From a virus, in IMG/VR virus record IMGVR_UViG_3300014934_000112, positions 3,769 to 67,768 of that record: 64,000 bases of DNA, one strand, 5' to 3'. The notes under the pieces are model-generated. The model was not told the origin of the DNA. It ran no database searches and saw only the letters and a list, made by a program, of their open reading frames with translations. Shown piece by piece: positions 1-41,495 of the stretch (its first letter is position 1; each line of letters starts with the position of its first letter). Made by a program: the position numbers and the translations under genes.

Positions 1-926
1 ATATCCCATAAGTTATGGTATTTTTTTGCTCCAAATCGTTTAGCCCATTTTGTTTCTGTTTTAGTATTGTTGGGTTTCCACTGGAACGGCAGCATATGGT
101 AGTTGATATAGAAAGCAATGTCTCCTATATTGTGATTCACAAATAAAGAATGCTGATTTGCAACCTCATAGACCAACATCATATATGCACCAATATTTTC
201 ATGTCCGTAATAATGCGCCACACCATTTTCGTCGAATGTTTGGGTGTATAATTTGCCCATATCATGATATTTAGTTGCTATAATCATTTCGTAGTCTTTA
301 TTTTTATGTAAGCCATGATTTTTTGCAAAATAGTAAGCATCTGTCATATGTTTACCAAGAGACTCTAAATGATATGGATTCTTCTGGTCGAAATCATTAT
401 ATATTTCTGAAACCCATGTGCTTTCAAGTCTATAGTTATACTTGTCTTTATTGTGAATTTGATCAACAAATTTAATCTCATCCCAACCTTCTTCGGCAAA
501 TGGAATCTGAAACTTTCGTGCCTGTTTATCAATTACATAATCTGGTACTGGATGTTCTCTGTCAATGTTATCTCTTTTACATTCACCAATTGGTTTTACG
601 ATAACAACACAGATTTTCTCACAATCAATTCCTTTAATAATATTGAGAATGGCTCGTCTGGATTTCATAGTAATGTTCGTTGCTTCTGCAAATACGTCCA
701 TACCATTTTTAAGGTTACTTCGAATTAAATTATGGAATTTCTGAAATACAGCACCATTCATAGACTGATCTTCAACAGAACCACAAATTTCTTTTCTCAG
801 ATTGTCAGTAGACAAAATTACTGCATCACTCTTTTCTCTGACCTCTATCTGATCTTTTATATATTGTGACTTACCAGATGCTGATAAGCCACACAATAGT
901 GTAAGTCTTGGTTTTCTTTCGCTCAT
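1..926 (-). CDS. Polynucleotide kinase (P-loop) fused to an HD-domain phosphohydrolase, for RNA/DNA end healing. The C-terminal end of the gene lies beyond the window start (partial).
   Basis: Minus-strand translation from the ATG at 924-926, preceded by the RBS GAAAGGAGAATT, gives MSERKPRLTLLCGLSASGKSQ (Walker A GxxxxGKS). It continues into an HD-type motif region (HLESLGKHMTDAYYFAKNHG ... ATKYHDMGK ... YYGHENIGAY). The ORF runs off position 1. Confidence 0.6.
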   Translation of the reverse strand, partial: MSERKPRLTLLCGLSASGKSQYIKDQIEVREKSDAVILSTDNLRKEICGSVEDQSMNGAVFQKFHNLIRSNLKNGMDVFAEATNITMKSRRAILNIIKGIDCEKICVVIVKPIGECKRDNIDREHPVPDYVIDKQARKFQIPFAEEGWDEIKFVDQIHNKDKYNYRLESTWVSEIYNDFDQKNPYHLESLGKHMTDAYYFAKNHGLHKNKDYEMIIATKYHDMGKLYTQTFDENGVAHYYGHENIGAYMMLVYEVANQHSLFVNHNIGDIAFYINYHMLPFQWKPNNTKTETKWAKRFGAKKYHNLWD

Positions 927-992
927 AATTCTCCTTTCGTGTGATAAAATTCGAGTTTTATGTAAAAAATCAATCGTCAAAAATCCTTTATT

Positions 993-2156
993 TTACTGGT
1001 GTTTTAGCAGATACTCTCTGCTGACATTTTTGAAACTTTGCTGTCCGTCAAGACTTCTGTATACAAATCCTTCTCTTTTAACTTTTGGATTGATAATACT
1101 GAATCCATCAGCCTGAAGCTTAATCTCTTCCATTGTATCTGGCGTTTTGTAGTGTTCATTGATAATTGGCACATGTTCTAAGTTATTATCATCACAGAAT
1201 TTTGCCATTTCCTGTGTACCTTTACGAATTCCTTCAACTACCAAATTGAATACGAATAAACGATTCTCTTTAAATTTGTAAGGATTTCCCTGTACACTAC
1301 CTGTACCTTCACCCTGTAAAACAACACGGTCATAGTTATTTGCAATGGCATAATCAATTAAAATCTTTTCAATATTATATTTGTCGGCAAGTTCCCAGTA
1401 GATATTGGAGTCATGATAACATTCCTGATCTCTGTCAGCCTGTCGGACATTTCTACTACATACAACAAACTCGAATTTGTTTTTGCCACGTTTCATCCGA
1501 TCAACGGCATATGTGCAAGATGTTCCATCAATTTTTTCTGTCTGAACCCACTCCTCATTAGACTCAAGATAGAATGGGCAATTTTCAATTCGGTTTTCAT
1601 CTGTCTTCACAATCCATGATGGGAACTGTTTAGGATTATCTTTTTTCTTACCAAAGAACAAGAATAAAAGTTTCCTACCAATGTCGTATCTCATGATTTT
1701 TCTGATGATTGGTTTTGAGAAAAATTCTTTATGTCTTGCAGCCATAGCTTTATATTTAGCGTTTGGATCTACTTTATTCGATTTTCTCTTACGATCTTCT
1801 TCGGAAGAATATGTAATTCTTAATTCCTTTGTAACATCATCACCAAGTTTTCTGTCAGATAATTCTGGGAATAATGTAAGTGGTAATGCTAACCCTTGAC
1901 TAAAACATTTAAATTTTCCGAGTTTCATTGTTTTGACCTTATAATGCTTCTTCTCTAGAAAAGCAAATCTCTCATCATCTGCTGGGCATTTGCTGTCAAT
2001 TTCAACAAATACAGCTTTGTCCCCAACTTTAAATTCATCAATTTTTGCGATTAATACCCAACCAAGAACGCCAATTAGTTCGATATTATCTGCACCATCA
2101 ATTGGTTTAATCCATGCAATTTCTTCAATATGTGCTAATGCTCTTTCTTTTGCCAA
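993..2156 (-). CDS. ATP-dependent RNA ligase family protein (nucleotidyltransferase KxDG motif)
   Basis: A 387-aa ORF containing EKIDGTS (the lysine-adenylation motif KxDG of ATP-dependent polynucleotide ligases), preceded by a ~200-aa N-terminal domain. It sits immediately downstream of the kinase/HD gene, the classic end-healing plus end-sealing pairing. Confidence 0.55.
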   Translation of the reverse strand: MAKERALAHIEEIAWIKPIDGADNIELIGVLGWVLIAKIDEFKVGDKAVFVEIDSKCPADDERFAFLEKKHYKVKTMKLGKFKCFSQGLALPLTLFPELSDRKLGDDVTKELRITYSSEEDRKRKSNKVDPNAKYKAMAARHKEFFSKPIIRKIMRYDIGRKLLFLFFGKKKDNPKQFPSWIVKTDENRIENCPFYLESNEEWVQTEKIDGTSCTYAVDRMKRGKNKFEFVVCSRNVRQADRDQECYHDSNIYWELADKYNIEKILIDYAIANNYDRVVLQGEGTGSVQGNPYKFKENRLFVFNLVVEGIRKGTQEMAKFCDDNNLEHVPIINEHYKTPDTMEEIKLQADGFSIINPKVKREGFVYRSLDGQQSFKNVSREYLLKHQ

Positions 2157-2194
2157 GTTTCTTATCTCTCCTTTTCTTATTTCAAAGTCAAATT

Positions 2195-2524
2195 TTATTC
2201 CTCTTGTTTCTTTTTGCTATAATCACAGTCAATCGTAAATTTAATCCGCTTGATTATAGGTAGACTCTCGTATTCAATAACGTCTCTTGTTATTGAACCG
2301 TTATACTTTTCAGAATCCTGTGTGTATGTTGACAACATATCTAACGTAACAGCTGCCATCTCCGCACATCTATGACAAACATCTACGTCAATAGACTCAA
2401 TCATTGACTGATCAGGGCTATTGGCTCCAAGGCATTCAACTTTTGGTATTGTTAATTTATGATGTTTATCGGTACACTCTTTATGGCAGAAATCACAGTA
2501 ATATTTTGTTTCTGTTTTCTTCAT
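2195..2524 (-). CDS. Small Cys-rich zinc-ribbon protein, tandem paralog of 2525-2926
   Basis: The motif YYCDFCHKECTDKHH..TIP plus CHRCAEMA is shared with the adjacent ORF (YYCDFCGNECTDEHY..TLP, CAKCARINA). Confidence 0.45.
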   Translation of the reverse strand: MKKTETKYYCDFCHKECTDKHHKLTIPKVECLGANSPDQSMIESIDVDVCHRCAEMAAVTLDMLSTYTQDSEKYNGSITRDVIEYESLPIIKRIKFTIDCDYSKKKQEE

Positions 2525-2926
2525 TTACTGTACCTCTTTATAATTAAGTATCATTGTATTATCTATATCTGGTCGAGTGACACAACATATCAACGGATCT
2601 TTCTTAAAAGCAGGATCAGATAAATCAATTTCTACGGTCTGTCTAATATCTACTCTACGCCTACATGCATTTGACAAAAATGTACACGTTTGAGCATTAA
2701 TCCTAGCACACTTAGCACATAGATTTAATTCATGGATTGCTATCAAATTATCATCTGGATTTTCTGGAGCAAATCTGCTTGTATATCCATCTGTTTGTTT
2801 AAATGGTAAAGTAACGTCATAGTGTTCATCAGTACATTCATTGCCACAAAAGTCACAATAATATTCTTCAATCGTCTTTGCTGTCTTCACATTTTCTCCT
2901 TTCTGTGCTATAATAAATTTGCACAT
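2525..2926 (-). CDS. Small Cys-rich zinc-ribbon protein, tandem paralog of 2195-2524
   Basis: Same CxxC...CxxC architecture and shared motif as the 2195-2524 ORF. Confidence 0.45.
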   Translation of the reverse strand: MCKFIIAQKGENVKTAKTIEEYYCDFCGNECTDEHYDVTLPFKQTDGYTSRFAPENPDDNLIAIHELNLCAKCARINAQTCTFLSNACRRRVDIRQTVEIDLSDPAFKKDPLICCVTRPDIDNTMILNYKEVQ

Positions 2927-2967
2927 GAATCAAAAGTTATTTGAGAACGATGTAATTTTGTATACGA

Positions 2968-3000
2968 GATACCACTTTTAACTGAGGTGGTATCTTTTTT
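2968..3000 (+). terminator. Intrinsic-terminator-like hairpin (GATACCAC / GTGGTATC) followed by T6
   Basis: An 8-bp perfect stem with an 11-nt loop and then TTTTTT. The T-run lies on the plus strand although the neighbouring genes are on the minus strand. Confidence 0.35.
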
Positions 3001-3018
3001 GTATACAAAACATTTATT

Positions 3019-3417
3019 TTATGAATCCTGTTTCACTGGAATCCATTCAGTAACTGGAACCATTTTCTCTACTTTCTTAACCTCATATGGCTGATCATCA
3101 ATTCCATTTTCTTGATATTCTGTCAGCGCTTTAAACCAATCAATCGCAAAATACTTATCTCGAATTTTAATAATGCTTGTCATTGACTTAACCCATCTCA
3201 GGTCATCTCTTGAAATTTCATCCACATGCATGTCTCGATAATCATAAATTAGTTGTTCGATTTCGTCGGTATCAAGATGCTTACCTTCACTAATTCTGTC
3301 ATAGACACTATCAAGAAAATCATCTTTCTGGCTTGTTTTATTTGTAATCATTCTTTCGTCTCTTTTTATCAAATAATTATGGTCGAGCCATTTCTTTAAT
3401 TTATCATTTGCGTTCAT
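3019..3417 (-). CDS. Hypothetical protein
   Basis: A 132-aa ORF with ATGA-type overlap to the upstream ORF; no recognisable motifs. Confidence 0.4.
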   Translation of the reverse strand: MNANDKLKKWLDHNYLIKRDERMITNKTSQKDDFLDSVYDRISEGKHLDTDEIEQLIYDYRDMHVDEISRDDLRWVKSMTSIIKIRDKYFAIDWFKALTEYQENGIDDQPYEVKKVEKMVPVTEWIPVKQDS

Positions 3418-4079
3418 GATTTTACTTTCTCTACTAATGCGTTTGATTTAAGTGTGCATACTGGGCAAACATAATTCTTGTCGCCGTTATAATCTACATC
3501 AATTGTTCCATCTGTATCAACGTAACAAACCATATAGTTAGACGTAGAATCAGGGGTTAATAACCAATGACAACCTGTTATATGCGCAATATAATCTCTA
3601 TATAGCCTATATTCGTCTAAAGTAAGCAATGAAATTTTCTCGAATAACGTGCCATATGTTGTACCATCTAGCGCCATTAAATTTCTTTCTGTCAGCATTA
3701 TTTTGCTTTCATCACAGAAATAATCTTCAATCTCAGATTTTAATGTGTTCTGTAAATTCAAACGCAGATTGCTATAACGCCAATTATTTGTACTCACATC
3801 GAATTCTGGAGCAACATCCATGAAATCTTTTGTGATTATAAAGCAACCATTAGATTTCTCACGATGTTCTAGTAGAATCCATTCTCTATCAGCAATTTTA
3901 AATACACTTCCTGGCTTTAATCTGCCTACTTCTACTTTTGAATTTACTTCGGTAAACCTCACAATATCATTTACATCATTTGAAGAATCATTTTCTTCCG
4001 ATTTCATCATATCTTTATCTTCAATTACTTTTACGACCGCCTTGGCAATGTCATAAATATCTTCTTTATCTAATGTCAA
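3414..4079 (-). CDS. Hypothetical protein
   Basis: A 221-aa ORF co-directional with and abutting its neighbours. Confidence 0.4.
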   Translation of the reverse strand: MTLDKEDIYDIAKAVVKVIEDKDMMKSEENDSSNDVNDIVRFTEVNSKVEVGRLKPGSVFKIADREWILLEHREKSNGCFIITKDFMDVAPEFDVSTNNWRYSNLRLNLQNTLKSEIEDYFCDESKIMLTERNLMALDGTTYGTLFEKISLLTLDEYRLYRDYIAHITGCHWLLTPDSTSNYMVCYVDTDGTIDVDYNGDKNYVCPVCTLKSNALVEKVKS

Positions 4080-5079
4080 GCTTTCTCTCCTTTACAAATT
4101 CTCTGTATTTCTTTGTATACTCATAAGAATCTTTAAAAATATTACAGATACCGTTATACATTCTTGGCTCAAATTGTTTTACAATATCAAGTTCGTTTTG
4201 ATAATCTTTACAAAATGGACATCCGCAACAGCCTGTCCTTTTTAATCCATATCGTTCATAACAATCCGAATGTCTAATCTTAAAATATGCACAATATTCT
4301 GATTTGTCGCTATCCAAATACCAAAAGATTGGTCTGTATTGATCACACTGCCCGACTTTTTCATCAAAACAGCTTTTATATCTTGATGCCCTTACTCCGC
4401 CTTCGGCTTTCCGAACACCTATAATACTTAGATCGTATCCATTGTCTTTTATTGCTTTATGAGATACATCTTTCTTAGCATAGTTGCAACACTTCCCAGA
4501 AATCTTAAATTGCGGTGGGTTCTGGACTATAAATTCTTTTAAAAATCTGTTATAGTTAATGTTAAAACTACTCAATCTTTTGCCATTATTTAACGTACCG
4601 TGTGAATCACACCACCACATAAGAGCAGATTTGCACTTCGGATACTTCTGATATAAATCATCAAATGGTTTGTCTTCCCATTGGAATCCGTGGCTTTGCA
4701 ATCTATACATCATTTCGCTGACATGCTTAGACATGAATGGTTGTCCATAAATCTTACATGATAATGGAATTGCTTTAATTGCTTTCTGTTGGATAATCTC
4801 AATATCATATTTATTTTCAAGATATTTAAGATGGTCTTTAGTTGCTTGATACTCTAAACCAGTGTCAAACCACATGTAATCAACCTTGTTATGTATATCA
4901 CATTTCCAGATCATGTCTAACATTACATCACTGTCAGCTCCGCCAGAAATTGAGCATAAAATCTTTTTATAATCAGTTCTGTTTATAATTGACCATGCCC
5001 GAATCATGTTGTCACAAATTGTCTTGTTTGCAGGGCATGTATCTAATAATTCATCAATATTCTTAGGTTTCTTAACCAA
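4066..5079 (-). CDS. PP-loop ATP pyrophosphatase of the PAPS-reductase/DndC-like family, with a C-terminal Cys cluster. Uses a TTG start.
   Basis: SISGGADSDV (the SGGxDS PP-loop) lies near the N-terminus and the C-terminus ends CCGCPFC. The start is TTG at 5077-5079 with the RBS GAGGAAG seven nt upstream; there is no in-frame ATG upstream before a TAA. Confidence 0.55.
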   Translation of the reverse strand: MVKKPKNIDELLDTCPANKTICDNMIRAWSIINRTDYKKILCSISGGADSDVMLDMIWKCDIHNKVDYMWFDTGLEYQATKDHLKYLENKYDIEIIQQKAIKAIPLSCKIYGQPFMSKHVSEMMYRLQSHGFQWEDKPFDDLYQKYPKCKSALMWWCDSHGTLNNGKRLSSFNINYNRFLKEFIVQNPPQFKISGKCCNYAKKDVSHKAIKDNGYDLSIIGVRKAEGGVRASRYKSCFDEKVGQCDQYRPIFWYLDSDKSEYCAYFKIRHSDCYERYGLKRTGCCGCPFCKDYQNELDIVKQFEPRMYNGICNIFKDSYEYTKKYREFVKERKLDIR

Positions 5080-5087
5080 ATGTACTT

Positions 5088-5119
5088 CCTCACGAAAATT
5101 TATTTCGTTTTCCGTGAGG
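5088..5119 (-). promoter_or_regulatory. Stem-loop that sequesters the Shine-Dalgarno sequence of the PP-loop ATPase gene
   Basis: CCTCACGAAAA ... TTTTCCGTGAGG form an 11-bp stem with one bulge and a 9-nt loop. The minus-strand RBS GAGGAAG (plus-strand 5085-5091) lies within the stem. Confidence 0.3.
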
Positions 5120-5256
5120 TAAAGCCATACTTGGTGAGTGTCTTTTTACACCACTATCACATTCCTTTTTCGATATAATCTAGCCAACGATCCGCTGAAT
5201 TATATCTTCGTGGAAACCTTTATGTCCTAAAGGTAATTAGTACAGATGGTTGAAGT

Positions 5257-5625
5257 CTAACCAATCGGCAGCACAGCGTCTCCGATATATTGCATATCCA
5301 ATATTTTGCAATCTTTCATTGGATGATCTGGATTCTCATTATTGTAATCTCTTACAAACATATCGAGCCAAAAATCAGAATATTCGTTATCATCTTTTGA
5401 GTTGAATACCGCATATCTGTATGCATTTTTATAGTTTCCCTTTGCTGTAAAATATGCTAGTTTGATTTGATATACTGGCAATTCTATTCTTGTTTTGATA
5501 AAGTTCTTTGGGTGTGTATCACGTAGTTTAGATCGTAATTCTTCATCAAAAATTTCAACTGTATCAATTCCTGTTCTGATAGCGCATTCGTCAAAAAATC
5601 GGTTAGGATGCACTGTTTTCACCAC
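5257..5625 (-). CDS. Hypothetical protein
   Basis: A 122-aa ORF. Confidence 0.4.
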   Translation of the reverse strand: MVKTVHPNRFFDECAIRTGIDTVEIFDEELRSKLRDTHPKNFIKTRIELPVYQIKLAYFTAKGNYKNAYRYAVFNSKDDNEYSDFWLDMFVRDYNNENPDHPMKDCKILDMQYIGDAVLPIG

Positions 5626-5642
5626 CTTTCTGATGTTTGACT

Positions 5643-5822
5643 TTACAATATAATTTTATGACCACACTGCGGACAGTGAATGAATTCCACATACCCACTA
5701 CAATAGCTGTATCCGACAAGTTCAGATTTAATATCTGATTCATCAAATCTCAACACAGCGCCACATCCATTGCATTTAACTTTTCGTTTAGTGCCATCTT
5801 TTAAAATTTTAATCATTTTCAT
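5643..5822 (-). CDS. 59-aa zinc-ribbon protein. It is below the ORF-track size cutoff and was found by manual translation.
   Basis: MKMIKILKDGTKRKVKCNGCGAVLRFDESD...CPQCGHKIIL. The start ATG overlaps the stop of the upstream paralog (ATGA-type overlap). Confidence 0.4.
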   Translation of the reverse strand: MKMIKILKDGTKRKVKCNGCGAVLRFDESDIKSELVGYSYCSGYVEFIHCPQCGHKIIL

Positions 5823-6015
5823 CTACCTCAACTTCTACTGGATGTTTGCACTGTGGACAGATTATATAGTTTGGTGGGTATACTGGTTTGAGAGTTCTGA
5901 AATCAATCGTTCGCTTTGGCTTATCTTTAATATCATTTTTCTCATAACTCAACTCTGCACCACAATTTTCACAAGTGCATTGTTTTCGTGTTCCTCTTTC
6001 TAAAATTTCAATCAT
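5809..6015 (-). CDS. 68-aa zinc-ribbon protein, paralog of 5643-5822. Start reassigned from 6111 to the internal ATG.
   Basis: The internal ATG at 6013-6015 is preceded by the strong RBS GGAAAGGAGAGACCA; product MIEILERGTRKQCTCENCGAEL...CPQCKHP. The longer 6111 start would place a terminator-like hairpin inside the coding region. Confidence 0.45.
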   Translation of the reverse strand: MIEILERGTRKQCTCENCGAELSYEKNDIKDKPKRTIDFRTLKPVYPPNYIICPQCKHPVEVEVDEND

Positions 6016-6075
6016 TGGTCTCTCCTTTCCTTGATTTTCTTCATTTTTCTCAAATTTCCTAAAATCGCATCGACC

Positions 6076-6102
6076 AAAACCCTTGTAAAATAAGGGTTTT
6101 TT
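6076..6102. terminator. Palindromic hairpin AAAACCCTT / AAGGGTTTT with a T-run. It lies just outside the left inverted repeat of the Dam switch.
   Basis: A 9-bp perfect stem with a 7-nt loop, followed by T6 on the plus strand. Confidence 0.4.
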
Positions 6103-6122
6103 GACGGTCAATTTTGCAATAA

Positions 6123-6138
6123 AATATTTCTTTTATGT
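6123..6138. repeat. Left inverted repeat (16 bp, AATATTTCTTTTATGT) of the invertible segment; contains the ATG of the plus-strand Dam fragment
   Basis: Perfect reverse complement of 6426-6441; 17 of 18 positions match if extended by two. Confidence 0.8.
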
Positions 6139-6419
6139 CATGTGACTATAACTATTTCAAGGATGTAAAAAATTGCTTATTATATCTTGATCCGCCATAC
6201 AAAGGCACAAGCAATTACGCTAAAAGTTGTATGGATTATGATCATTTTTATGATTTTTGTCACGACATTGCGCAAAATAACCTTGTTATCATTAGCGAAT
6301 ACGATATGCCAAATGACGAATTTAAATGCATTTGGCAAAAAGAACGTACAGTGTGCCAAGATGCCAACCGAATAAATGGACAAAAGGCAACTGAAAAATT
6401 ATTTATTCCCAATTTATGA
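6135..6419 (+). CDS. dam: Dam-family N6-adenine DNA methyltransferase, C-terminal portion (catalytic motif IV DPPY), carried on the inverted segment
   Basis: MSCDYNYFKDVKNCLLYLDPPYKGTSNY..NLVIISEYD aligns with the E. coli Dam region FFYCESYADSMARADDASVVYCDPPY..PVLISNHD. There is no SAM-binding N-terminal domain and no RBS before the ATG. Confidence 0.65.
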   Translation: MSCDYNYFKDVKNCLLYLDPPYKGTSNYAKSCMDYDHFYDFCHDIAQNNLVIISEYDMPNDEFKCIWQKERTVCQDANRINGQKATEKLFIPNL

Positions 6420-6423
6420 TTAT

Positions 6424-6879
6424 TTACATAAAAGAAATATTCTTTAATGAAATCGCTTGTTTTCGTAAATTAATCACTCTCTCATAATACATATTTCTTT
6501 TTCCAGTCTTAACTTGTCCGAACCCGCCATTGAAGTATTTCCCTCCAAAGCTTGCACAGTATCCAATCAAAGCAGTGTATTCTTTAGAATATTTATCTCC
6601 TCCTGCTTTTCGATTTTCTCTAACTTCAACATAATGTTCCTTCGAACAAATTTCTGGAGCAATTGGAATCGTTGGATTTTCTTGAACGTATTTCAATAAT
6701 GCAATCAATTCATCATTAATGTCTGCGCCAATTTTGTTTTTACATTGAATCTTATCAATAATATTGGCTCCGCCAACAAATGGCTCTATGTATGTTTCAA
6801 TATTGTTATCATCAATATATTTCTGAATAATCGGTACAATATATTTTGCAATTCTATTTTTACTTCCTTGATATACTAT
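6424..6879 (-). CDS. dam: Dam-family N6-adenine DNA methyltransferase, N-terminal portion (SAM-binding motif I). It begins at an ATA codon and has no ATG/GTG/TTG.
   Basis: The minus-strand translation after a TAA stop reads RQ-I-VYQGSKNRIAKYIVPIIQKYIDDNNIETYIEPFVGGANIIDKIQCKNKIGADINDELIALL...YCASFGGKYFNGGFG...ISFM*. This matches E. coli Dam WAGGK...EPFVGAGSVF...ADINSDLISLY...YGYNG...FNVPFG. The in-frame ATA is at 6877-6879. Confidence 0.6.
   Translation of the reverse strand: MVYQGSKNRIAKYIVPIIQKYIDDNNIETYIEPFVGGANIIDKIQCKNKIGADINDELIALLKYVQENPTIPIAPEICSKEHYVEVRENRKAGGDKYSKEYTALIGYCASFGGKYFNGGFGQVKTGKRNMYYERVINLRKQAISLKNISFM
6426..6441. repeat. Right inverted repeat (ACATAAAAGAAATATT); encodes the last codons (..NISFM) of the minus-strand Dam N-terminal part
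   Basis: Perfect reverse complement of 6123-6138. Confidence 0.8.
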
Positions 6880-7140
6880 TTGTCTTTACCAGAAAGCCCA
6901 TATGGTTTACAGTAGCTACACTCTCGTTTTCCTTTCTGGTTTATTATTTAATTAAAGTCATCAATTAGCAAATTCTCACAACTCCAAATTCGTATAATCC
7001 TACATCATCCTCAAGTGCAATAGTGTCATGTTCTGTCGTAGTAATAAATTCATTATCTATGCCAACAACTGGCATATGATCTGGATATTTACCCAGCTTT
7101 TTCTTAAGCTGTCCAACTGTTATATAATTTGGTTCTTCCA

Positions 7141-7527
7141 TTACAATCTCACAACTTTCTTATCTGCTAACTCTTTTACTCTATCAGTCAAAGTTACTGC
7201 CATCACATGTGTTCCCATATAAGCATCAAGAGCTTCGCCAATTAAATTGTATCCTTCATCAATAAGAACATGATCATAATTCATTCCACGCTTGTTCTTA
7301 CATTCTTCTACGGTCATAGGTACTGGAATAATTAAGTCAAGATCGTTTGCTTTGTTTAATAATAGCTTGATCTGTGAATGATTTTTTACAATAATCGGAT
7401 ACTGTGTTGTAGCACTCGTATAGAGTAATTGTGTAGTTTTGCCCGTTGCTCTGTCTTTAATAATCAGTGTTGTTTGTTTATTTGTCATAGCTAATCTCCT
7501 TCTATATAAAATATCTCTGAAGTTCAT
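7141..7527 (-). CDS. Hypothetical protein
   Basis: A 128-aa ORF. Confidence 0.4.
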   Translation of the reverse strand: MNFRDILYRRRLAMTNKQTTLIIKDRATGKTTQLLYTSATTQYPIIVKNHSQIKLLLNKANDLDLIIPVPMTVEECKNKRGMNYDHVLIDEGYNLIGEALDAYMGTHVMAVTLTDRVKELADKKVVRL

Positions 7528-7912
7528 CTTTGAATCTTAGTGGACTATCAACAATGAGCCGTGAATACTGAAACTGTCTTAAAAAATTCATAACAGTTCT
7601 AACATCTGCACCGCTTAAAGGAATAAATTTTACATATTCAGGTCTCCCAGCAATACATACAACTGCCCACGAATGCTCTGAATCATGAAATCCAACGTCA
7701 ACTGCTACATCTGTAATCTGGTTGTACATCTTCTTCATTTCTTCATTCTGCTTTGTTGAAATCTGACACTGACGAGCTGCCTCATTGCAATTGTTTTTGG
7801 CAAATCTTAATGTAGTGTTACTTTCATCAATTTCATTTTTTAAGGCATCAATATCTGGTTGTATGATTTCTAGCAACCATTTTCGAATTTTCTCTTTTAA
7901 TTTCTGGAACAA
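7502..7912 (-). CDS. Hypothetical protein
   Basis: A 136-aa ORF. Confidence 0.4.
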   Translation of the reverse strand: MFQKLKEKIRKWLLEIIQPDIDALKNEIDESNTTLRFAKNNCNEAARQCQISTKQNEEMKKMYNQITDVAVDVGFHDSEHSWAVVCIAGRPEYVKFIPLSGADVRTVMNFLRQFQYSRLIVDSPLRFKDELQRYFI

Positions 7913-7924
7913 TTAACTCTCCTT

Positions 7925-8125
7925 TTATATTTCACACGATCCATTTAATCCATATGGTTCATAACACAAGCCACTTACCCAAACCCAGTTATCGTCTTTG
8001 TATATGAGGAATTCAACTGTTTCAAAATCACAATAACTGTCACTATCTTTGTCTTCACGAACTGCATATACAGTGATTGGTTTCTTAGGTGTTGGAGACC
8101 TGCCAATTTCTTGTATTTTAAACAT
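7925..8125 (-). CDS. Hypothetical small protein
   Basis: A 66-aa ORF in the co-directional gene array. Confidence 0.3.
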   Translation of the reverse strand: MFKIQEIGRSPTPKKPITVYAVREDKDSDSYCDFETVEFLIYKDDNWVWVSGLCYEPYGLNGSCEI

Positions 8126-9306: not shown

Positions 9307-10254
9307 TTACTCCTCAAACTTTAAATTTTTAAAGAAATATGTAATGACATTGATATTCCAGCCATCACCAAGCACATTTGCTGCTTCATTTCTTGTCAAA
9401 CATTGTGTATATCCTGATGGAACACATTGACATCTTTCTAATTCTTCTTGATTCATATATCTAACTCCATCAAAAGCGTGTCCCGTATAATCATCAAGTT
9501 CACTGGCTTTAATTTTTCTTTTACCACCAGACAATCTTATATATTCATCAACACATTTTTGATAATGTTCCTTGTTCTTAAAAATTAATGTAGTAAATCC
9601 AGTTGAATAATATCTGTGAAACATTTTGCAAGGAGTTGAGTGCGGTCTGCTATCAACAACAACCAAACATCTAGCTTTGTCTCGATTACTCCACCCATCA
9701 GTTAAAATGTCATTCAATGAAACGTCAATTGGCTCAATGTCCTTATTTACACTGATGTTTGTCCAATAATACCGTTTTCTTAAAGCAGGAGAAACTTTTT
9801 CTGCATTAATTAGATATGGTTCGACTTCCATTAATTCACTAATAAAATCTCTATCATCTTTCTTCATAGAAGCTACATTCTCCATAAAGAAATATTTTGG
9901 ATTCACTTCTTTTAAAATTCGATAACACTGCTTGAATAATCCAGATTTCTCGTCATTATCTAACCCAATTCTTCTATCTGTCTTGCAAGCAATTGAGAAT
10001 GTCTGGCAGGGGCTGCCAAACATCACAATATCAATGTCTGTTTTATAGTCACCAGATTCTGTGTAAAGCACTCCATTTTTATATGTAACTTTATTTACAT
10101 CACCAATATGTATTGTTTCTGGATAATTTTCTTTTGTAACTTTGATTGCAATATCTTTAATCTCTGCTGCAAAGTATTTGTTAACTTTAATTCCTGCTTT
10201 ATCCAAAGCAATATGTCCACAAGACATTCCGTCACATAGACTTAATACGTTTAT
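9307..10254 (-). CDS. DNA (cytosine-5)-methyltransferase, Dcm-type. It begins at an ATA codon.
   Basis: The canonical motifs are (ATA)NVLSLCDGMSCGHIAL (motif I), FGSPCQTFSIA (motif IV, PCQ), FFMENV (motif VI, ENV) and ANVLGDGWNINVI (motif X). The ORF-track ATG at 10225-10227 lies inside motif I. An in-frame TGA is at 10264-10266 and the ATA at 10252-10254. Confidence 0.8.
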   Translation of the reverse strand: MNVLSLCDGMSCGHIALDKAGIKVNKYFAAEIKDIAIKVTKENYPETIHIGDVNKVTYKNGVLYTESGDYKTDIDIVMFGSPCQTFSIACKTDRRIGLDNDEKSGLFKQCYRILKEVNPKYFFMENVASMKKDDRDFISELMEVEPYLINAEKVSPALRKRYYWTNISVNKDIEPIDVSLNDILTDGWSNRDKARCLVVVDSRPHSTPCKMFHRYYSTGFTTLIFKNKEHYQKCVDEYIRLSGGKRKIKASELDDYTGHAFDGVRYMNQEELERCQCVPSGYTQCLTRNEAANVLGDGWNINVITYFFKNLKFEE

Positions 10255-11695: not shown

Positions 11696-12289
11696 TCACT
11701 CATTTTCATTGTGTTCTTCTGTCATGGACAGATTATCCGAAGTGCCTTTCCATAAGACCACCACATTTCTTTCTAATGATTTTTGTACATCAACCACTTT
11801 CTGATTTGTTGATCCTGCCCACGGATAAGACATGTCTTTCAATTCGTCTACATACTGTCCGTCTACGAGGACATCTATGTAAGGAAGAATCTCAAGTCTG
11901 CAATCGTACATAAGATGGTTTGTTCTACTTCTGCGAGAATATTCAGCTAAGTCCAAACCAATATCTTCTGCTTTATTCCCTGTATATAACCAGATTTTTT
12001 TGTCTGGCATAAACTCTTTGACAAATTTGCATATTGCAGAAACACCATCTCTATTTTCTTTTGCTAAAGGCTCACCGCCAAGAATACTTAACCTTGTATA
12101 TTGGGGCTTTGATAACTGATGCAATAGTTCCTCAATTTCTTTAAAAGTTAATTTATTGCCGCCATTAAAATCCCACGTTTCTTTATTAAAACAATTCTTA
12201 CAATGGAAGTGGCATCCTTGAACGAAGAGGGCTACGCCAAGCCCTTCTCCGTTGCTAATGTCCATTTTTCTTATTGAAGCGTATCTCAT
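11696..12289 (-). CDS. nrdG: Anaerobic ribonucleotide reductase activating protein (radical SAM)
   Basis: Contains GCHFHCKNC (CxxxCxxC); lies immediately downstream of and overlapping nrdD. Confidence 0.8.
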   Translation of the reverse strand: MRYASIRKMDISNGEGLGVALFVQGCHFHCKNCFNKETWDFNGGNKLTFKEIEELLHQLSKPQYTRLSILGGEPLAKENRDGVSAICKFVKEFMPDKKIWLYTGNKAEDIGLDLAEYSRRSRTNHLMYDCRLEILPYIDVLVDGQYVDELKDMSYPWAGSTNQKVVDVQKSLERNVVVLWKGTSDNLSMTEEHNENE

Positions 12290-16293: not shown

Positions 16294-17133
16294 TTATGGC
16301 ATTTCATTGTAAATTTTGCTAACATCATCTAATAATTCTTTTGGCAAATATCTTTCTAAAAGCTCATTCGAATTATCAAGTGTTTTCTTATAGAAATCTT
16401 CTGCGATACCACCGCCAATAGCAGCAATCGTATCTGTGTCACATGGCAAAGACAATACATTTCTTAAGAATGATTCATAATCTTCGCTCTCTAAGAAACA
16501 TCTGATTGCCACAGGAACACTATCTTGAACTGTCGCAGACCAAACATAATTCTTTCTATAATCATCGAGTGGTCGATCAACACCATATGTATATTGACTG
16601 GATGGATAACTTTTTAATGCATATTGATAAATTTCTTCTTTTGATTTACCCCATAGCGCCATAAAAGAACAGCCTGTTACAATCGATGCACCTTTGTAAG
16701 ATTCTGAGTGGCGATGCGTTTTCTCACATGTCCATTGTGCTAAATCTATGTAATAACTCAATACGTCTGGACGATCAGCAAACCCATTAAAATACATTGT
16801 GATAGGCGAAATTCTCATGGCACATCCATTACCAAAGCTTTCATTAACACGACTACCATCATCGTGTAACCAGTCTTCGAACATTGCGCCATATCCCGTA
16901 CCAGGATATTTCTTGCCATATTCTAAGTAGAACTCCCAAGGCTCTTTGATATGTTTGTGTTCATCGTCATCATCCAACAGCCACATTCCTGTTGCAATAC
17001 TGAGAACTGTATCATCTGTAAATTTACATTTATCTGTAAACAATTCACAGTTCTTCCAATCTAAATCGTGAGGTCTGCGGAACTCATATTGAGAACCGCA
17101 AATATCTCCTAGAATCGCTCCAATTAAAGCCAT
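16294..17133 (-). CDS. ADP-ribosylglycohydrolase family protein (DraG/ARH-like)
   Basis: The N-terminus reads ALIGAILGDICGSQYEF and the protein contains PCDTDTIAAIGGGIAEDF (the conserved DTDT metal-binding motif). Confidence 0.65.
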   Translation of the reverse strand: MALIGAILGDICGSQYEFRRPHDLDWKNCELFTDKCKFTDDTVLSIATGMWLLDDDDEHKHIKEPWEFYLEYGKKYPGTGYGAMFEDWLHDDGSRVNESFGNGCAMRISPITMYFNGFADRPDVLSYYIDLAQWTCEKTHRHSESYKGASIVTGCSFMALWGKSKEEIYQYALKSYPSSQYTYGVDRPLDDYRKNYVWSATVQDSVPVAIRCFLESEDYESFLRNVLSLPCDTDTIAAIGGGIAEDFYKKTLDNSNELLERYLPKELLDDVSKIYNEMP

Positions 17134-18443: not shown

Positions 18444-18785
18444 TTAAATCCTAGGGTGTTTAATCCCCTTTTGTTTTGACCAATCAATTTCTGAAGGTTC
18501 TACACCTGTCTGTTGTTTGTAAAATTCATAATCTTCTGTCCAAAACTCTGCATCTTGATCTTTAATGAAGTATCTTTCGTCAAAAACTAAATCTAACTCA
18601 TCTGGAGTAGCAAGATATTTTACTTTACAACGTCTACCGTATTTGTATGTTTCTCCGTTGTAACTGATTGAACACGGTTCCCAAATGCGATATTCTACAT
18701 AGTTGTCTTTTACAACCAGTTTTTCGATTTTGCTTTCTGGGATTCCCAGTCTAACAAAACATTCATAAATGGTTAGTTTATTCAC
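18444..18785 (-). CDS. Hypothetical protein
   Basis: A 113-aa ORF. Confidence 0.4.
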   Translation of the reverse strand: MNKLTIYECFVRLGIPESKIEKLVVKDNYVEYRIWEPCSISYNGETYKYGRRCKVKYLATPDELDLVFDERYFIKDQDAEFWTEDYEFYKQQTGVEPSEIDWSKQKGIKHPRI

Positions 18786-21526: not shown

Positions 21527-21577
21527 ACCATACTTTTTGCACCCTGTCAATAGGTGCAAGAAAGAAAGTTAATTTTT
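21527..21577. repeat. 51-bp exact repeat (copy 1) containing a 7-bp-stem hairpin and a TTGACA box. It lies upstream of the 3D-domain gene.
   Basis: ACCATACTTTTTGCACCCTGTCAATAGGTGCAAGAAAGAAAGTTAATTTTT is identical to 60613-60663; on the minus strand TTGCACC TATTGACAG GGTGCAA forms a hairpin. Confidence 0.7.
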
Positions 21578-36335: not shown

Positions 36336-36569
36336 CTAACACCAAGCCCATATAATTACACCTATAGCACCAACAATATGTATAACACACCATATTTGAG
36401 AGAACATACTCAAGAATCTTCCAGGAATCCCTTTTGGATATGATATATATAAGTATTCATCTCGATTGTCATAAATCCAGCACCATATTCCAATATAAAC
36501 GACACATGCTATGAGAATACTTGCTAATTGGATTATCAATTTTACATCCTTCATAGTTACTTCTACCAT
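36336..36569 (-). CDS. Small membrane protein
   Basis: A 77-aa ORF with two TM helices. Confidence 0.35.
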   Translation of the reverse strand: MVEVTMKDVKLIIQLASILIACVVYIGIWCWIYDNRDEYLYISYPKGIPGRFLSMFSQIWCVIHIVGAIGVIIWAWC

Positions 36570-38127: not shown

Positions 38128-38323
38128 TTTCTTACCACTTTTGCCATAACAATCACCATTTGATAAATCATATTTGCAAGTTTTACCATCATCCAGATGG
38201 AAAATAATAAACTTGCCTTGTTTTTCTGCTGTAATAGTGTTTCAACTCCTTTTCTACCACAATATATAGTATATAATATTTATAGGCATACTATATATTG
38301 TGGTTATTTTTAACATCAAATTC

Positions 38324-39598: not shown

Positions 39599-39599
39599 A

Positions 39600-40433
39600 T
39601 CACACCATTCCTCTCACAATTCGTTCATTTGTTGTCATCAAGAAATTATTGATACGACCCCAATCTGGTTCGTCTGGTAAATCAGTATTCATATAATCAT
39701 AATCAAATTGATAAAGTAATCCTTCAATAAAAACATCGTATGATTGATTTGGGAAATATTCTGTATACTCATTGTGTTTGCCAAATCTATATGTTTTATG
39801 CGTACTATTGTATCCTTCTTTGATCTTTACAAGATCTTTTCCTATGTCGTCCATAGATCCAAACATTGTTCCGTTATGTAATAATTCAATGCCCTGCAAC
39901 AATAATCGAACTGCATGCATCATTGATTTATTAGCGTATCGTTCCGCCTTTTGCTTTTCTTTCTCTGAATCTTTATTTTTATAATACTTAAAACTCGTTC
40001 GAGTCAGGCAATCACATATATATCCTTTATATGCATGATAAACTCTCTTAGATAAAAACATATCTCTATTTTTGATCAGTTCCATACCAATATCAGATAT
40101 ATATAAATAGCGGTCTGGTGCAAAATATAACAGCTCTAAAAACGTAGGATTACCCTTTGCAAGCATATTGATCATCTTAATATGCGAATGTAACACAGTA
40201 TCAACATCTTTATGATCGTCTGTCTTTTCAAGATTATTTGGATTATTATTCAACAAAATCTCTCTTTTATCACTAAGGAAAACTCCACGTAAATCAATGT
40301 CAGAATCCTCTGTATTTGTTCCGTAGGCATAACTTCCACCTAACGTGAGAAAAGCGATTTTGCGAGGATAATCTCGCAAAAAGTCATACTCTGGAGACGA
40401 GTTTATGTAATCTTTCACTTCTTCAATTGTCAT
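39600..40433 (-). CDS. Pol-beta-superfamily nucleotidyltransferase (RlaP/PF10127-like)
   Basis: The N-terminal motif is FLTLGGSYAYGTNTEDSDIDLRGVF (GS..x..DxD). Confidence 0.5.
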   Translation of the reverse strand: MTIEEVKDYINSSPEYDFLRDYPRKIAFLTLGGSYAYGTNTEDSDIDLRGVFLSDKREILLNNNPNNLEKTDDHKDVDTVLHSHIKMINMLAKGNPTFLELLYFAPDRYLYISDIGMELIKNRDMFLSKRVYHAYKGYICDCLTRTSFKYYKNKDSEKEKQKAERYANKSMMHAVRLLLQGIELLHNGTMFGSMDDIGKDLVKIKEGYNSTHKTYRFGKHNEYTEYFPNQSYDVFIEGLLYQFDYDYMNTDLPDEPDWGRINNFLMTTNERIVRGMV

Positions 40434-40447
40434 GATTTCACCTCTTT

Positions 40448-41492: not shown

Positions 41493-41495
41493 ACA

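What the first reader, a model, noticed from the sequence alone, without database searches (positions are those of the whole stretch)
1..2156. RNA end-healing and end-sealing pair (P-loop polynucleotide kinase fused to an HD phosphohydrolase, plus an ATP-dependent RNA ligase), a likely tRNA-repair counter-defence
The partial first gene encodes a P-loop kinase (GLSASGKS) fused to an HD-motif phosphohydrolase domain. The next gene encodes a KxDG (EKIDGTS) nucleotidyltransferase-type ligase with a large N-terminal extension. Kinase/phosphatase plus RNA ligase is the T4 Pnk/Rnl1 logic for repairing tRNAs cut by anticodon nucleases. Here the phosphatase is HD-type rather than HAD-type, and the ligase does not obviously fall into Rnl1 or Rnl2 by motif spacing, so this looks like a non-canonical variant of the system. 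It sits in the same genome as a Pol-beta-type nucleotidyltransferase (39600-40433) of the kind associated with RNA-repair loci.
Basis: partly seen in the sequence, partly recalled or inferred. Interest (0 to 1): 0.55.

Follow-up and report, generated by a model that had tools for sequence, protein, structure and literature searches.

The report
Phage RNA break-repair gene pair
A large gut-bacterial phage carries two neighbouring genes, an enzyme that cleans up broken RNA ends and an RNA ligase that rejoins them. This is a common, already recognised type of phage RNA-repair kit, not a new system.

Summary
Both genes lie on the minus strand, with the ligase (2156..993) transcribed before the kinase-HD gene (926..1, 30 C-terminal residues cut off by the window edge). 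The ligase is a full-length Rnl5-family RNA ligase (Naegleria/Deinococcus type): it has the N-terminal OB domain, an NTase domain with all catalytic residues, and no C-terminal appendage. The "N-terminal extension" is the Rnl5 signature domain plus a conserved basic 60-aa linker. The first protein is a Pnkp-type 5'-OH polynucleotide kinase fused to an HD phosphoesterase. Both of its domains are specifically homologous to the biochemically characterised HD-type PNK of Rhodothermus phage RM378, but in the opposite order. A true RlaP nucleotidyltransferase lies at 39600-40433. The Pnk-HD gene is preceded by an RNA ligase in 64 of 80 related viral loci (Rnl5 or Rnl1 type, often with RlaP between). 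The same cassette is annotated in Bacillus and Lysinibacillus phages. It is a member of a large known kind, though. The RNA target and the counter-defence role remain inference. In 16 of 43 close relatives the ligase gene is absent, while Pnk-HD is kept (and RlaP in 14 of the 16).

The parts
462..926 (-). Pnk-HD gene, N-terminal P-loop 5'-OH polynucleotide kinase domain (aa 1-155). The P-loop GLSASGKS is at 867-890.
   Evidence: Pfam AAA_33 1.3e-17. CthPnkp kinase domain 4gp6 1.5e-11, or 1.4e-20 with the family profile. The CthPnk residues K21/S22/D38/R41/T80 map to K19/S20/D41/R44/T83; four of these are invariant and S20 nearly invariant (at least 90%) in 29 homologs. hhalign to the RM378 PNK kinase domain gives 97.8% probability, E 1.1e-12.
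1..455 (-). Pnk-HD gene, C-terminal HD phosphoesterase domain (aa 158-308 of 338). The HD dyad is at 261-266. The last 30 aa, including conserved D313, lie beyond the window edge.
927..992 (-). 66-nt spacer between the ligase stop codon and the Pnk-HD start codon. It contains the Pnk-HD ribosome-binding site.
   Evidence: Read directly from the sequence. The promoter and terminator consensus scans found nothing above shuffled expectation. In more distant relatives the two ORFs overlap by 8 nt.
1812..2156 (-). RNA ligase gene, Rnl5 signature N-terminal OB domain (aa 1-115).
   Evidence: PF21189 PHA02142 OB-fold 7.4e-20. It aligns to NgrRnl residues 5-121. The ATP gamma-phosphate and metal contacts R4 and D53 map to R5 and D54.
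1629..1811 (-). RNA ligase gene, basic linker/insert of about 60 aa (aa 116-176) that is absent from NgrRnl.
   Evidence: This stretch is not aligned to NgrRnl, whose corresponding linker is about 16 aa. It is conserved in the phage subfamily (consensus NAKYKSMxAR...WGRK..F.FFGKKKDNP). It is covered end to end by phrog_968 'RNA ligase'. Its function was not tested.
993..1628 (-). RNA ligase gene, nucleotidyltransferase domain (aa 177-387) plus stop codon. The motif I Lys208 codon is at 1533-1535. There is no C-terminal appendage.
   Evidence: PF09414 RNA_ligase 2.4e-18 and TIGR02306 RNA_lig_DRB0094 3e-26. NgrRnl 5cot scores 6e-35 and aligns to the last residue. NgrRnl R149/K170/D172/E227/E312/K326 map to R189/K208/D210/E283/E362/K376.
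39600..40433 (-). RlaP (RNA-ligase-associated Pol-beta nucleotidyltransferase), a probable third component encoded about 37 kb away.
   Evidence: PF10127 RlaP 1.5e-21, 77.7 bits against a cut-off of 23. phrog_388 1.3e-41. In other phages and prophages an RlaP or RlaP-like gene sits between the ligase and Pnk-HD. It is retained at the same distance in relatives.

Best explanation
The two genes form a phage RNA end-healing and end-sealing module, probably working with the RlaP encoded 37 kb away.

Inferred mechanism:
1. An RNA is cut by a metal-independent ribonuclease, leaving 2',3'-cyclic phosphate (or 3'-phosphate) and 5'-OH ends.
2. The C-terminal HD domain of Pnk-HD removes the 2',3'-cyclic or 3'-phosphate with a His/Asp-bound transition-metal centre, giving a 3'-OH.
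3. The N-terminal P-loop kinase transfers the gamma-phosphate of an NTP to the 5'-OH. K19 and S20 bind Mg-NTP, D41 is the general base, and R44 and T83 hold the first phosphodiester.
4. If nucleotides were lost, RlaP can add one or two NMPs to the 3'-OH.
5. The Rnl5 ligase is adenylylated on Lys208, transfers AMP to the 5'-phosphate, and catalyses 3'-OH attack to reseal the strand. Characterised Rnl5 enzymes do this at a nick held in a duplex with an RNA 3'-OH strand.

What is shown here: family membership, intact catalytic residues, and conserved gene linkage.

What is inferred: all enzymatic activities, the identity of the RNA (tRNA, rRNA or other), and the purpose, which would be rescue of the translation apparatus from host ribotoxins or abortive-infection RNases.
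For: - Ligase: it matches NgrRnl over both domains (6e-35) with every essential residue conserved. It also matches PHROG 968 'RNA ligase' at 6e-61.
- Kinase: it matches the CthPnkp kinase domain (1.4e-20 by profile), Pnkp1 (1e-9) and mammalian PNKP (1e-5). The essential K/S/D/R/T residues are conserved.
- HD domain: confirmed by conservation, profile search and structure model.
- Both domains of Pnk-HD are homologous to phage RM378 PNK (E about 1e-12 each). PMC1997131 cites that enzyme as a viral PNKP with an HD domain and demonstrated 3'-phosphatase activity.
- Linkage, anchored on Pnk-HD: 64 of 80 viral loci have an RNA ligase immediately upstream. 43 are Rnl5 type and 21 are Rnl1 type (PF09511), and 20 of the Rnl1 loci have an RlaP-like gene between.
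- Linkage, anchored on the ligase: 68 of 80 loci have Pnk-HD within 3 kb downstream, and 21 have RlaP between.
- The same cassette occurs in Bacillus phage Thrax3 and Lysinibacillus phage LC76P1.
- RlaP is present in the window. Per PMC12776372 it adds 1-2 NMPs to damaged RNA 3' ends.
- DNA sealing is covered by a separate NAD-dependent DNA ligase at 18778-20769.
Against: - No activity was measured.
- Characterised Rnl5 enzymes seal duplex nicks, and their physiological substrates are unknown (PMC4408790). A tRNA anticodon-loop break is not their model substrate.
- In 16 of 43 close relatives of this phage the ligase gene is cleanly absent. An unrelated 191-aa ORF fills the slot in the examples examined. 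Pnk-HD is kept in all 16 and RlaP in 14 of the 16. The ligase is therefore dispensable or replaceable.
- RlaP is not adjacent here.
- No tRNA genes occur in the window, and no host nuclease is known.
- HD-Pnk and Rnl5 in Deinococcus are linked to radiation/DNA-damage resistance (PMC5397189, PMC1997131).
Confidence: 0.78

Rival explanations
1. The module is for DNA, or RNA-DNA junction, break repair during phage replication or recombination. Pnk-HD would heal 5'-OH and 3'-phosphate DNA ends. Rnl5 would seal nicks where a ribonucleotide patch or primer provides the 3'-OH.
For: - NgrRnl and DraRnl seal RNA-OH/pDNA nicks, and a DNA-gap-repair role has been proposed for them (PMC4408790).
- Deleting DraRnl sensitises Deinococcus to ionising radiation (PMC5397189).
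- The HD-kinase DRB0098 lies in a radiation-induced operon (PMC1997131).
- Here the genes sit downstream of a replication and nucleotide-metabolism block: Pol III alpha, RecJ-like, RecD2-like, LigA, NrdD.
Against: - The phage already has a dedicated NAD-dependent DNA ligase.
- In sibling phages the same Pnk-HD is partnered with an Rnl1-type ligase (T4 gp63 family), which acts on single-stranded RNA loops.
- The partner RlaP acts on RNA 3' ends and not on other E. coli macromolecules (PMC12776372).
Confidence: 0.12
2. Pnk-HD works mainly without the phage ligase. It would remodel RNA ends, or degrade small nucleotide signals, for example by removing 2',3'-cyclic phosphates that trigger host responses. 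The neighbouring ligase would be an independent accessory gene.
For: - 16 of 43 close relatives keep Pnk-HD, and 14 of these 16 keep RlaP, but they lack any Rnl5 or Rnl1 relative detectable in their contigs.
- The ligase slot is a clean cassette replacement.
- HD domains include many cyclic-nucleotide phosphodiesterases among the structural neighbours.
Against: - Across the wider family, 80-85% of loci keep a ligase directly adjacent, often with overlapping ORFs, and with two unrelated ligase families filling the same position.
- The kinase keeps the polynucleotide acceptor-site residues of CthPnk: D41, R44, Q54, F61, T83.
Confidence: 0.07
3. The module is for routine processing or maturation of phage or host RNAs, such as tRNA or intron products, rather than repair of inflicted damage.
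For: - Related phages carry other tRNA-end enzymes nearby, such as Thg1-like proteins.
- The closest structural neighbour of the HD domain is the HD module of a tRNA nucleotidyltransferase.
Against: - No tRNA genes were found in the 64-kb window.
- No Thg1 homolog is present in the window.
- Variable presence of the ligase among near-identical phages fits an accessory or conflict gene better than an essential processing step.
Confidence: 0.03

Closest known systems
Bacteriophage T4 Pnkp + Rnl1 (tRNA-Lys anticodon-loop repair against PrrC)
   Same: It uses the same three chemical steps (3' dephosphorylation, 5' phosphorylation, ATP-dependent sealing) and the same order of kinase then phosphatase domain in one polypeptide. 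Sibling phages of this one pair the same Pnk-HD with a T4 gp63/Rnl1-type ligase.
   Different: The phosphatase here is an HD metal-dependent domain, not a DxDxT HAD acylphosphatase. The kinase is closer to the bacterial Pnkp clade than to T4 Pnk (profile E 0.04-0.13). The ligase is Rnl5, not Rnl1. No cognate anticodon nuclease is known.
Rhodothermus phage RM378 polynucleotide kinase/3'-phosphatase (Blondal et al. 2005; Rm378p110), with the RM378 Rnl1-type ligase
   Same: Both the kinase and the HD domain are specifically homologous (hhalign 97.8% and 97.7%, E about 1e-12). They share the HDxGK, GHE, NYHML and CD motifs. It is a phage enzyme with a separate RNA ligase in the same genome.
   Different: The domain order is reversed: RM378 has HD at the N-terminus and the kinase at the C-terminus. 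Its ligase is Rnl1 type and lies 6.5 kb away.
Runella slithyformis HD-Pnk with its overlapping upstream ligase ORF (Munir & Shuman 2017; described in PMC6097658)
   Same: It is a bifunctional HD phosphoesterase plus P-loop 5'-OH kinase. It is encoded immediately downstream of an ATP-dependent ligase gene, in the same ligase-then-healing-enzyme order as here.
   Different: It has the HD-kinase order, it is bacterial, and its operon also includes Tpt1 and a methyltransferase-HIT protein. Its ligase did not seal standard substrates.
Rnl5 RNA ligases NgrRnl (Naegleria gruberi) and DraRnl (Deinococcus radiodurans)
   Same: The architecture is the same: N-terminal OB domain plus NTase domain with no C-terminal domain. 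All active-site residues are conserved. Phage homologs of this family were already noted in PMC4408790.
   Different: A conserved basic insert of about 60 aa lies between the two domains. Here the ligase is genetically coupled to an end-healing enzyme.
Annotated cassette in Bacillus Tsamsa-like phages (e.g. vB_BanS-Thrax3) and Lysinibacillus phage LC76P1
   Same: Gene content and order are the same: Rnl5-type RNA ligase, then (RlaP), then kinase-HD protein. In Thrax3 they are annotated 'RNA ligase' and 'polynucleotide kinase'.
   Different: Protein identity is only 19-30%. The ligase belongs to a second subfamily with extra NTase inserts and an acidic tail. RlaP is adjacent there but 37 kb away here.
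Clostridium thermocellum Pnkp (with Hen1)
   Same: It is the closest solved structure to the kinase domain, and the catalytic residues are conserved.
   Different: Its phosphatase is a calcineurin-type dinuclear metallophosphoesterase and its ligase domain is fused. No Hen1 partner was seen among the ORFs scanned here, and the window was not searched for one.

Membership tests
Rnl5 RNA ligase family (DraRnl/NgrRnl) | Covalent nucleotidyltransferase domain with a motif I lysine nucleophile and the motif III/IV/V catalytic residues | tested here: met
   PF09414 2.4e-18 and TIGR02306 3e-26. K208, D210, E283, E362, K376 and R189 align with NgrRnl K170, D172, E227, E312, K326 and R149. They are invariant in the phage homologs, except D210 in one subfamily.
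Rnl5 RNA ligase family (DraRnl/NgrRnl) | Signature N-terminal (OB) domain upstream of the NTase domain | tested here: met
   PF21189 7.4e-20. Residues 5-115 align to NgrRnl 5-121 at 1.3e-15.
Rnl5 RNA ligase family (DraRnl/NgrRnl) | No C-terminal appendage after the NTase domain | tested here: met
   The alignment runs to the last residue of both proteins: query 387 of 387 and NgrRnl chain residue 338 of 340.
Rnl5 RNA ligase family (DraRnl/NgrRnl) | Seals 3'-OH/5'-PO4 nicks in duplexes whose 3'-OH strand is RNA | not testable with these tools
   This needs a biochemical assay.
Rnl1 / Rnl2 RNA ligases | Rnl1 (PF09511) or Rnl2-type NTase with the family-specific C-terminal domain | tested here: not met
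   The window ligase gave no PF09511 or Rnl2 hit at E<=1. phrog_548 'RNA ligase' matched only weakly (5e-10), against phrog_968 at 6e-61. By contrast, the ligase of sibling locus L081 is PF09511 at 6e-26.
ATP- or NAD-dependent DNA ligase | DNA ligase adenylation domain plus OB domain families | tested here: not met
   No DNA-ligase family matched. No DNA ligase appeared among the PDB hits. A separate LigA-type gene lies at 18778-20769.
T4-type Pnkp (kinase + HAD phosphatase) | N-terminal P-loop 5'-OH polynucleotide kinase with the general-base Asp and acceptor-binding Arg | tested here: met
   K19, S20, D41, R44 and T83 align with CthPnk K21, S22, D38, R41 and T80, which equal T4 D35, R38 and T86 per PMC3902929. 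The direct match to T4 Pnk is only marginal (E 0.04-0.13).
T4-type Pnkp (kinase + HAD phosphatase) | C-terminal DxDxT acylphosphatase (HAD) 3'-phosphatase domain | tested here: not met
HD-Pnk end-healing enzymes (RM378 PNK, Runella HD-Pnk, Deinococcus DRB0098) | HD phosphoesterase domain homologous to that of a characterised member | tested here: met
   hhalign of the HD-domain profile against RM378 PNK residues 1-187 gave 97.7% probability, E 2.4e-12 and 29% identity.
HD-Pnk end-healing enzymes (RM378 PNK, Runella HD-Pnk, Deinococcus DRB0098) | P-loop polynucleotide kinase domain homologous to that of a characterised member | tested here: met
   hhalign of A1 against RM378 PNK residues 187-338 gave 97.8% probability and E 1.1e-12.
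HD-Pnk end-healing enzymes (RM378 PNK, Runella HD-Pnk, Deinococcus DRB0098) | Domain order: HD N-terminal, kinase C-terminal | tested here: not met
   Here the kinase is aa 1-155 and the HD domain is aa about 178-320. RM378 PNK has HD at 35-94 and the kinase at 189-325. The top 150 representatives of this HD subfamily nearly all carry the HD domain at the C-terminus.
HD-Pnk end-healing enzymes (RM378 PNK, Runella HD-Pnk, Deinococcus DRB0098) | 2',3'-cyclic/3'-phosphoesterase and 5'-kinase activities | not testable with these tools
   This needs a biochemical assay.
RlaP (PF10127) RNA-ligase-associated nucleotidyltransferase | Pol-beta NTase of family PF10127 above the curated threshold | tested here: met
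   Window 39600-40433 scores 77.7 bits against a cut-off of 23, E 1.5e-21.
RlaP (PF10127) RNA-ligase-associated nucleotidyltransferase | Genomic adjacency to an RNA ligase | tested here: not met
   It lies 37 kb from the ligase in this window. An RlaP or RlaP-like gene is adjacent in L005, L012, L094, L095, 21 of 80 ligase-anchored loci and 20 Rnl1-type loci.

The most novel reading that the evidence does not exclude
The kinase-first 'Pnk-HD' enzyme would be a distinct, biochemically uncharacterised fourth architecture of end-healing enzyme. Its family has at least about 1,500 clusters at 50% identity.

In this phage clade Pnk-HD forms a fixed core with RlaP, and the sealing enzyme is plugged into that core interchangeably: Rnl5, Rnl1, or none. 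The Rnl5 subfamily with the conserved basic 60-aa insert might then recognise a specific broken RNA (for example a particular tRNA or rRNA site). Ligase-less phages might rely on an unrecognised sealing activity.
Probability: 0.15. Interest if true: 0.5.

Novelty: new member of a known kind. Interest (0 to 1): 0.3.

Why it matters
It adds a well-supported example of RNA repair genes in a roughly 160-kb phage or prophage of human-gut Lachnospiraceae. The ligase is 99% identical to a protein annotated from Anaerostipes hadrus.

In this lineage the end-healing enzyme and RlaP are conserved, while the ligase is a swappable accessory. This makes the group a convenient natural experiment for asking which host RNases these phages face.

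The enzymes themselves (kinase-first Pnk-HD, and Rnl5 with a basic insert) are uncharacterised variants of useful molecular-biology enzymes. The concept of phage healing and sealing of broken RNA is long established, however, and the cassette is already annotated in cultured phages.

Tried and rejected
- Nucleotide search of 1-8000 against INPHARED phages found nothing. Relatives were found only at protein level.
- Is phrog_6931 (the top PHROG hit for Pnk-HD) an HD-Pnk-type permutation? The HD domain alone does not hit it, so no.
The database search for the ligase listed only 97-100% identical sequences among its top 120 of 6,601 hits. The fold of the 60-aa insert was therefore not modelled.
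- The hypothesis that the 191-aa ORF replacing the ligase in 16 relatives is an alternative sealing partner was rejected as unsupported. It has no Pfam or PDB match. Its homologs sit in unrelated neighbourhoods, and in L294 one coexists with an Rnl5 ligase rather than replacing it.
- No tRNA genes were found in the window. No Thg1 or Rnl1 homologs were found in the window.
- Promoter and terminator scans around the pair were no better than shuffled sequence.
- Burroughs & Aravind 2016 (PMC5062991) and Munir & Shuman 2017 (PMC5237116) are not held in the library. Their content is cited only through papers that describe them.
- The Runella HD-Pnk sequence could not be obtained for a direct comparison. 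RM378 PNK was used instead.
Full report
**Anatomy**

All long ORFs in the window are on the minus strand, and GC content is 32-35%. The finding covers two genes.

The upstream gene (2156..993) encodes 387 aa. It starts at a TTG with a GGAGAG site 9 nt upstream, and public assemblies call the same 387-aa product.

A 66-nt spacer follows. The second gene then starts at ATG 926 and runs off the window at position 1 after 308 codons. Database proteins P0001 and P0002 cover all 308 window residues at a listed 100% identity (the retrieved P0001 sequence differs at one residue) and are 338 aa long. Only 30 C-terminal residues are therefore missing, including a conserved Asp.

- GLSASGKS at aa 13-20
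- the H221-D222 dyad
- EKIDGTS at aa 207-213 of the ligase

**The ligase is an Rnl5-family RNA ligase**

Sequence matches:
- Pfam gives the PHA02142 OB-fold domain (7e-20, aa 7-93) and RNA_ligase PF09414 (2e-18, aa 201-376).
- NCBIfam gives RNA_lig_DRB0094, the Deinococcus DraRnl model.
- PHROGs gives phrog_968 'RNA ligase' at 6e-61 over the whole length.
- Against the PDB, the only hits are Naegleria gruberi RNA ligase structures (6e-35). These align in two blocks, aa 5-115 and aa 177-387, and the second block reaches the last residue of both proteins.

According to PMC4408790, Rnl5 is defined by an N-terminal signature domain, an NTase domain with no C-terminal appendage, and sealing of duplex nicks whose 3'-OH strand is RNA. 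The first two features are met here.

The residues shown by PMC7261155 to contact ATP and metals in NgrRnl are R4, D53, R149, K170, D172, E227, E312 and K326. They correspond to R5, D54, R189, K208, D210, E283, E362 and K376. Most are invariant in an alignment of phage homologs.

The one departure is a basic stretch of about 60 aa (aa 116-176) between the domains. It is conserved in this phage subfamily and absent from NgrRnl.

No DNA-ligase, Rnl1 or Rnl2 family matched. A separate NAD-dependent DNA ligase is encoded at 18778-20769.

**The first protein is a kinase-first Pnk-HD end-healing enzyme**

Kinase domain (aa 1-155):
- It matches AAA_33 (1e-17) and phrog_505 'polynucleotide kinase' (6e-15).
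- The best PDB match is the kinase domain of Clostridium thermocellum Pnkp: 1.5e-11 for the single sequence, and 1.4e-20 with a profile of 29 homologs.
- Pnkp1 (1e-9), PSTK, mammalian PNKP (1e-5) and, marginally, T4 Pnk also match.
- The CthPnk residues that PMC3902929 shows to be essential or to bind the acceptor are S17, K21, S22, D38, R41, Q51, F58, T80 and R120. They align with S15, K19, S20, D41, R44, Q54, F61, T83 and R123. Most of these are invariant across the family (S20 is nearly invariant; R123 is not among the conserved columns).

HD domain (C-terminal):
- The single sequence gave only a sub-threshold HD hit (E 0.11).
- 21 of 29 homologs hit Pfam HD, with a best E of 4.9e-6.
- The family has invariant H193, H221-D222, H238, H242, H277 and D313.
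- A profile of the domain alone finds the HD module of a class II tRNA nucleotidyltransferase (3wfp, 2e-3).
- The full-length model is confident (pLDDT 84.5, pTM 0.87).

**Link to a characterised enzyme**

PMC1997131 states that one viral PNKP with an HD phosphatase domain has demonstrated 3'-phosphatase activity: phage RM378 PNK (Blondal et al. 2005).

I retrieved the RM378 genome. The only ORF combining HD and AAA_33 is Rm378p110, annotated 'probable poly A polymerase' (361 aa). Its HD domain is at aa 35-94 and its kinase at aa 189-325.

Profile-profile comparison aligns the window-type kinase domain to its C-terminal half (97.8%, E 1.1e-12). It aligns the window-type HD domain to its N-terminal half (97.7%, E 2.4e-12), sharing the HDxGK, GHE, NYHML and CD motifs.

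The window protein is therefore a domain-order permutation of the known HD-Pnk type. That Rm378p110 is the published PNK is my inference from its architecture, not something the record states.

The Runella HD-Pnk is also encoded just downstream of, and overlapping, a ligase ORF (PMC6097658).

**Gene linkage**

Exact-protein look-ups of homologs at 43-48% identity show the ligase immediately upstream of Pnk-HD, with 8-nt overlaps. In a prophage-like locus a weakly RlaP-like gene lies between them.

| Anchor gene (IMG/VR loci) | Loci | Neighbour found |
|---|---|---|
| Pnk-HD | 80 | 43 with an Rnl5-type ligase upstream |
| Pnk-HD | 80 | 21 with an Rnl1-type ligase (PF09511, phrog_562) upstream; 20 of these have an RlaP-like gene between |
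| Pnk-HD | 80 | 16 with no ligase within 6 kb |
| Rnl5 ligase | 80 | 68 with Pnk-HD within 3 kb downstream; 21 of these have RlaP between |

Cultured phages carry the same arrangement:
- Bacillus phage vB_BanS-Thrax3 has a gene annotated 'RNA ligase' followed by one annotated 'polynucleotide kinase'.
- Lysinibacillus phage LC76P1 has Rnl5 -> RlaP -> Pnk-HD.

The HD subfamily has about 1,500 clusters at 50% identity with E<=1e-10. Nearly all of the top 150 have the kinase-first architecture.

**RlaP**

The window's Pol-beta gene (39600-40433) is a true RlaP. Per PMC12776372, RlaP adds one or two nucleotides to damaged RNA 3' ends.

**A complication: the ligase is not always present**

All 16 ligase-less loci belong to the window's own clade (Pnk-HD 71-82% identical).
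- DNA alignment shows homology running up to just before the ligase start and resuming at the Pnk-HD start.
- In the two examples read (L050, L026), the 1.2-kb ligase gene is replaced by a 191-aa ORF of unknown function.
- The contigs of these 16 loci are absent from scans for Rnl5 and Rnl1 relatives.
- 14 of the 16 retain RlaP at the same distance of about 35-40 kb.

Pnk-HD and RlaP are therefore the conserved core in this lineage, and the ligase is accessory.

The 191-aa ORF is not a credible replacement ligase. It has no family or PDB match. Its homologs lie in unrelated neighbourhoods, and one coexists with an Rnl5 gene.

**Context**

The window is part of a phage or prophage of about 160 kb; related IMG/VR contigs are 150-170 kb. 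Its genes include:
- Pol III alpha-like polymerase
- RecJ-like and RecD2-like proteins
- LigA
- NrdD
- a C5 DNA methylase
- PAPS-reductase-like proteins
- an ADP-ribosylglycohydrolase
- a Band_7/flotillin protein
- a tyrosine integrase

The ligase is 99% identical to a protein annotated from Anaerostipes hadrus. More distant Pnk-HD loci lie in Lachnospiraceae genomes.

**Interpretation**

The best-supported reading is a phage RNA healing-and-sealing module with T4 Pnkp/Rnl logic:
1. The HD domain removes 2',3'-cyclic or 3'-phosphates.
2. The kinase phosphorylates the 5'-OH.
3. RlaP optionally restores lost nucleotides.
4. Rnl5 seals the break.

Replacement of Rnl5 by Rnl1 in sibling phages, the RlaP association and the separate DNA ligase all favour RNA over DNA as the substrate. 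They do not identify the RNA. Characterised Rnl5 enzymes prefer duplex nicks, and their physiological substrates are unknown (PMC4408790). The Deinococcus relatives are linked to DNA-damage resistance (PMC5397189, PMC1997131). The counter-defence role is therefore plausible but inferred.

**Novelty**

The concept, both enzyme families, the HD-type end-healing kinase and the gene cassette are all already known or annotated. The jumbo-phage survey PMC7824862 also notes HD-like phosphatases in phage RNA repair.

Three things are not characterised, as far as the searchable literature shows:
- the kinase-first permutation
- the basic insert in this Rnl5 subfamily
- the swappable ligase slot

I rate the finding as a new member of a known kind, of modest interest.

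Noticed in passing
window 993-2156 compared with L050:5405-5992, L026:5410-5990 and L016: In 16 of 43 close relatives the ligase gene is missing. In the two loci read (L050, L026) it is replaced, exactly at the gene boundaries, by a 191-aa ORF with no Pfam or PDB match. Pnk-HD is retained in all 16, and RlaP in 14 of the 16. How healed ends would be sealed in those phages is unexplained.
   Followed up: yes
window 2195-2524 (-) and 2525-2926 (-): Immediately upstream of the ligase are two paralogous small Cys-rich proteins of 109 and 133 aa. They share a YYCDFC..EC...C.(K/R)C pattern, probably a zinc ribbon, and have no Pfam match. This stretch varies among relatives.
   Followed up: partly
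window 4066-5079 (-); L008:2210-3490: There is a PAPS-reductase-domain protein (1.6e-14), and a second 426-aa PAPS_reduct protein lies a few kb further on in the near-identical contigs. They sit near a C5 cytosine methylase (9307-10227). This may be a DNA-modification module.
   Followed up: no
window 16294-17133 (-): An ADP-ribosylglycohydrolase (PF03747, 8e-29) is encoded in the same early/replication region. It could be a counter-measure to ADP-ribosylation-based defence, or it could be linked to NAD-dependent RNA processing.
   Followed up: no
window 18778-20769 (-), 21569-23842 (-), 23832-27065 (-), 27077-28825 (-), 12286-14523 (-): A self-contained replication and nucleotide-metabolism block is present: NAD-dependent DNA ligase, RecD2-like helicase, Pol III alpha (DnaE-like) with a PHP domain, RecJ-like DHH exonuclease, and anaerobic ribonucleotide reductase NrdD.
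   Followed up: partly
window 36563-42443 (-): The neighbours of RlaP (39600-40433) are a weak DHH/DHHA1 phosphoesterase-like protein (41496-42443), a nucleoside 2-deoxyribosyltransferase-like protein (38324-38803), and a PcfJ-like protein (37096-38127).
   Followed up: no
window 49708-51093 (-); L005:9538-10431: A Band_7/SPFH-flotillin protein is encoded in the window. A Band_7 gene also lies just downstream of the Rnl5-RlaP-PnkHD cassette in the prophage-like locus L005.
   Followed up: no
L005:1398-2204, L290:1894-2781, L293:9011-9868: Thg1-like (PF04446) genes recur in related gut Firmicute phages and prophages near the repair cassette or near the 191-aa ORF family. These enzymes add nucleotides 3'-5' and are used in tRNA 5'-end repair. 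None is present in this window.
   Followed up: partly
window 61793-62743 (-); L008:14807-16057: A tyrosine recombinase/integrase gene is present in the window. Another lies about 4 kb beyond the window start in near-identical contigs, which suggests a temperate or integrating element.
   Followed up: no
L235:48060-49142 (Rhodothermus phage RM378, Rm378p110): The RefSeq record still labels this ORF 'probable poly A polymerase'. Its HD plus P-loop kinase architecture fits the published RM378 polynucleotide kinase/3'-phosphatase.
   Followed up: partly
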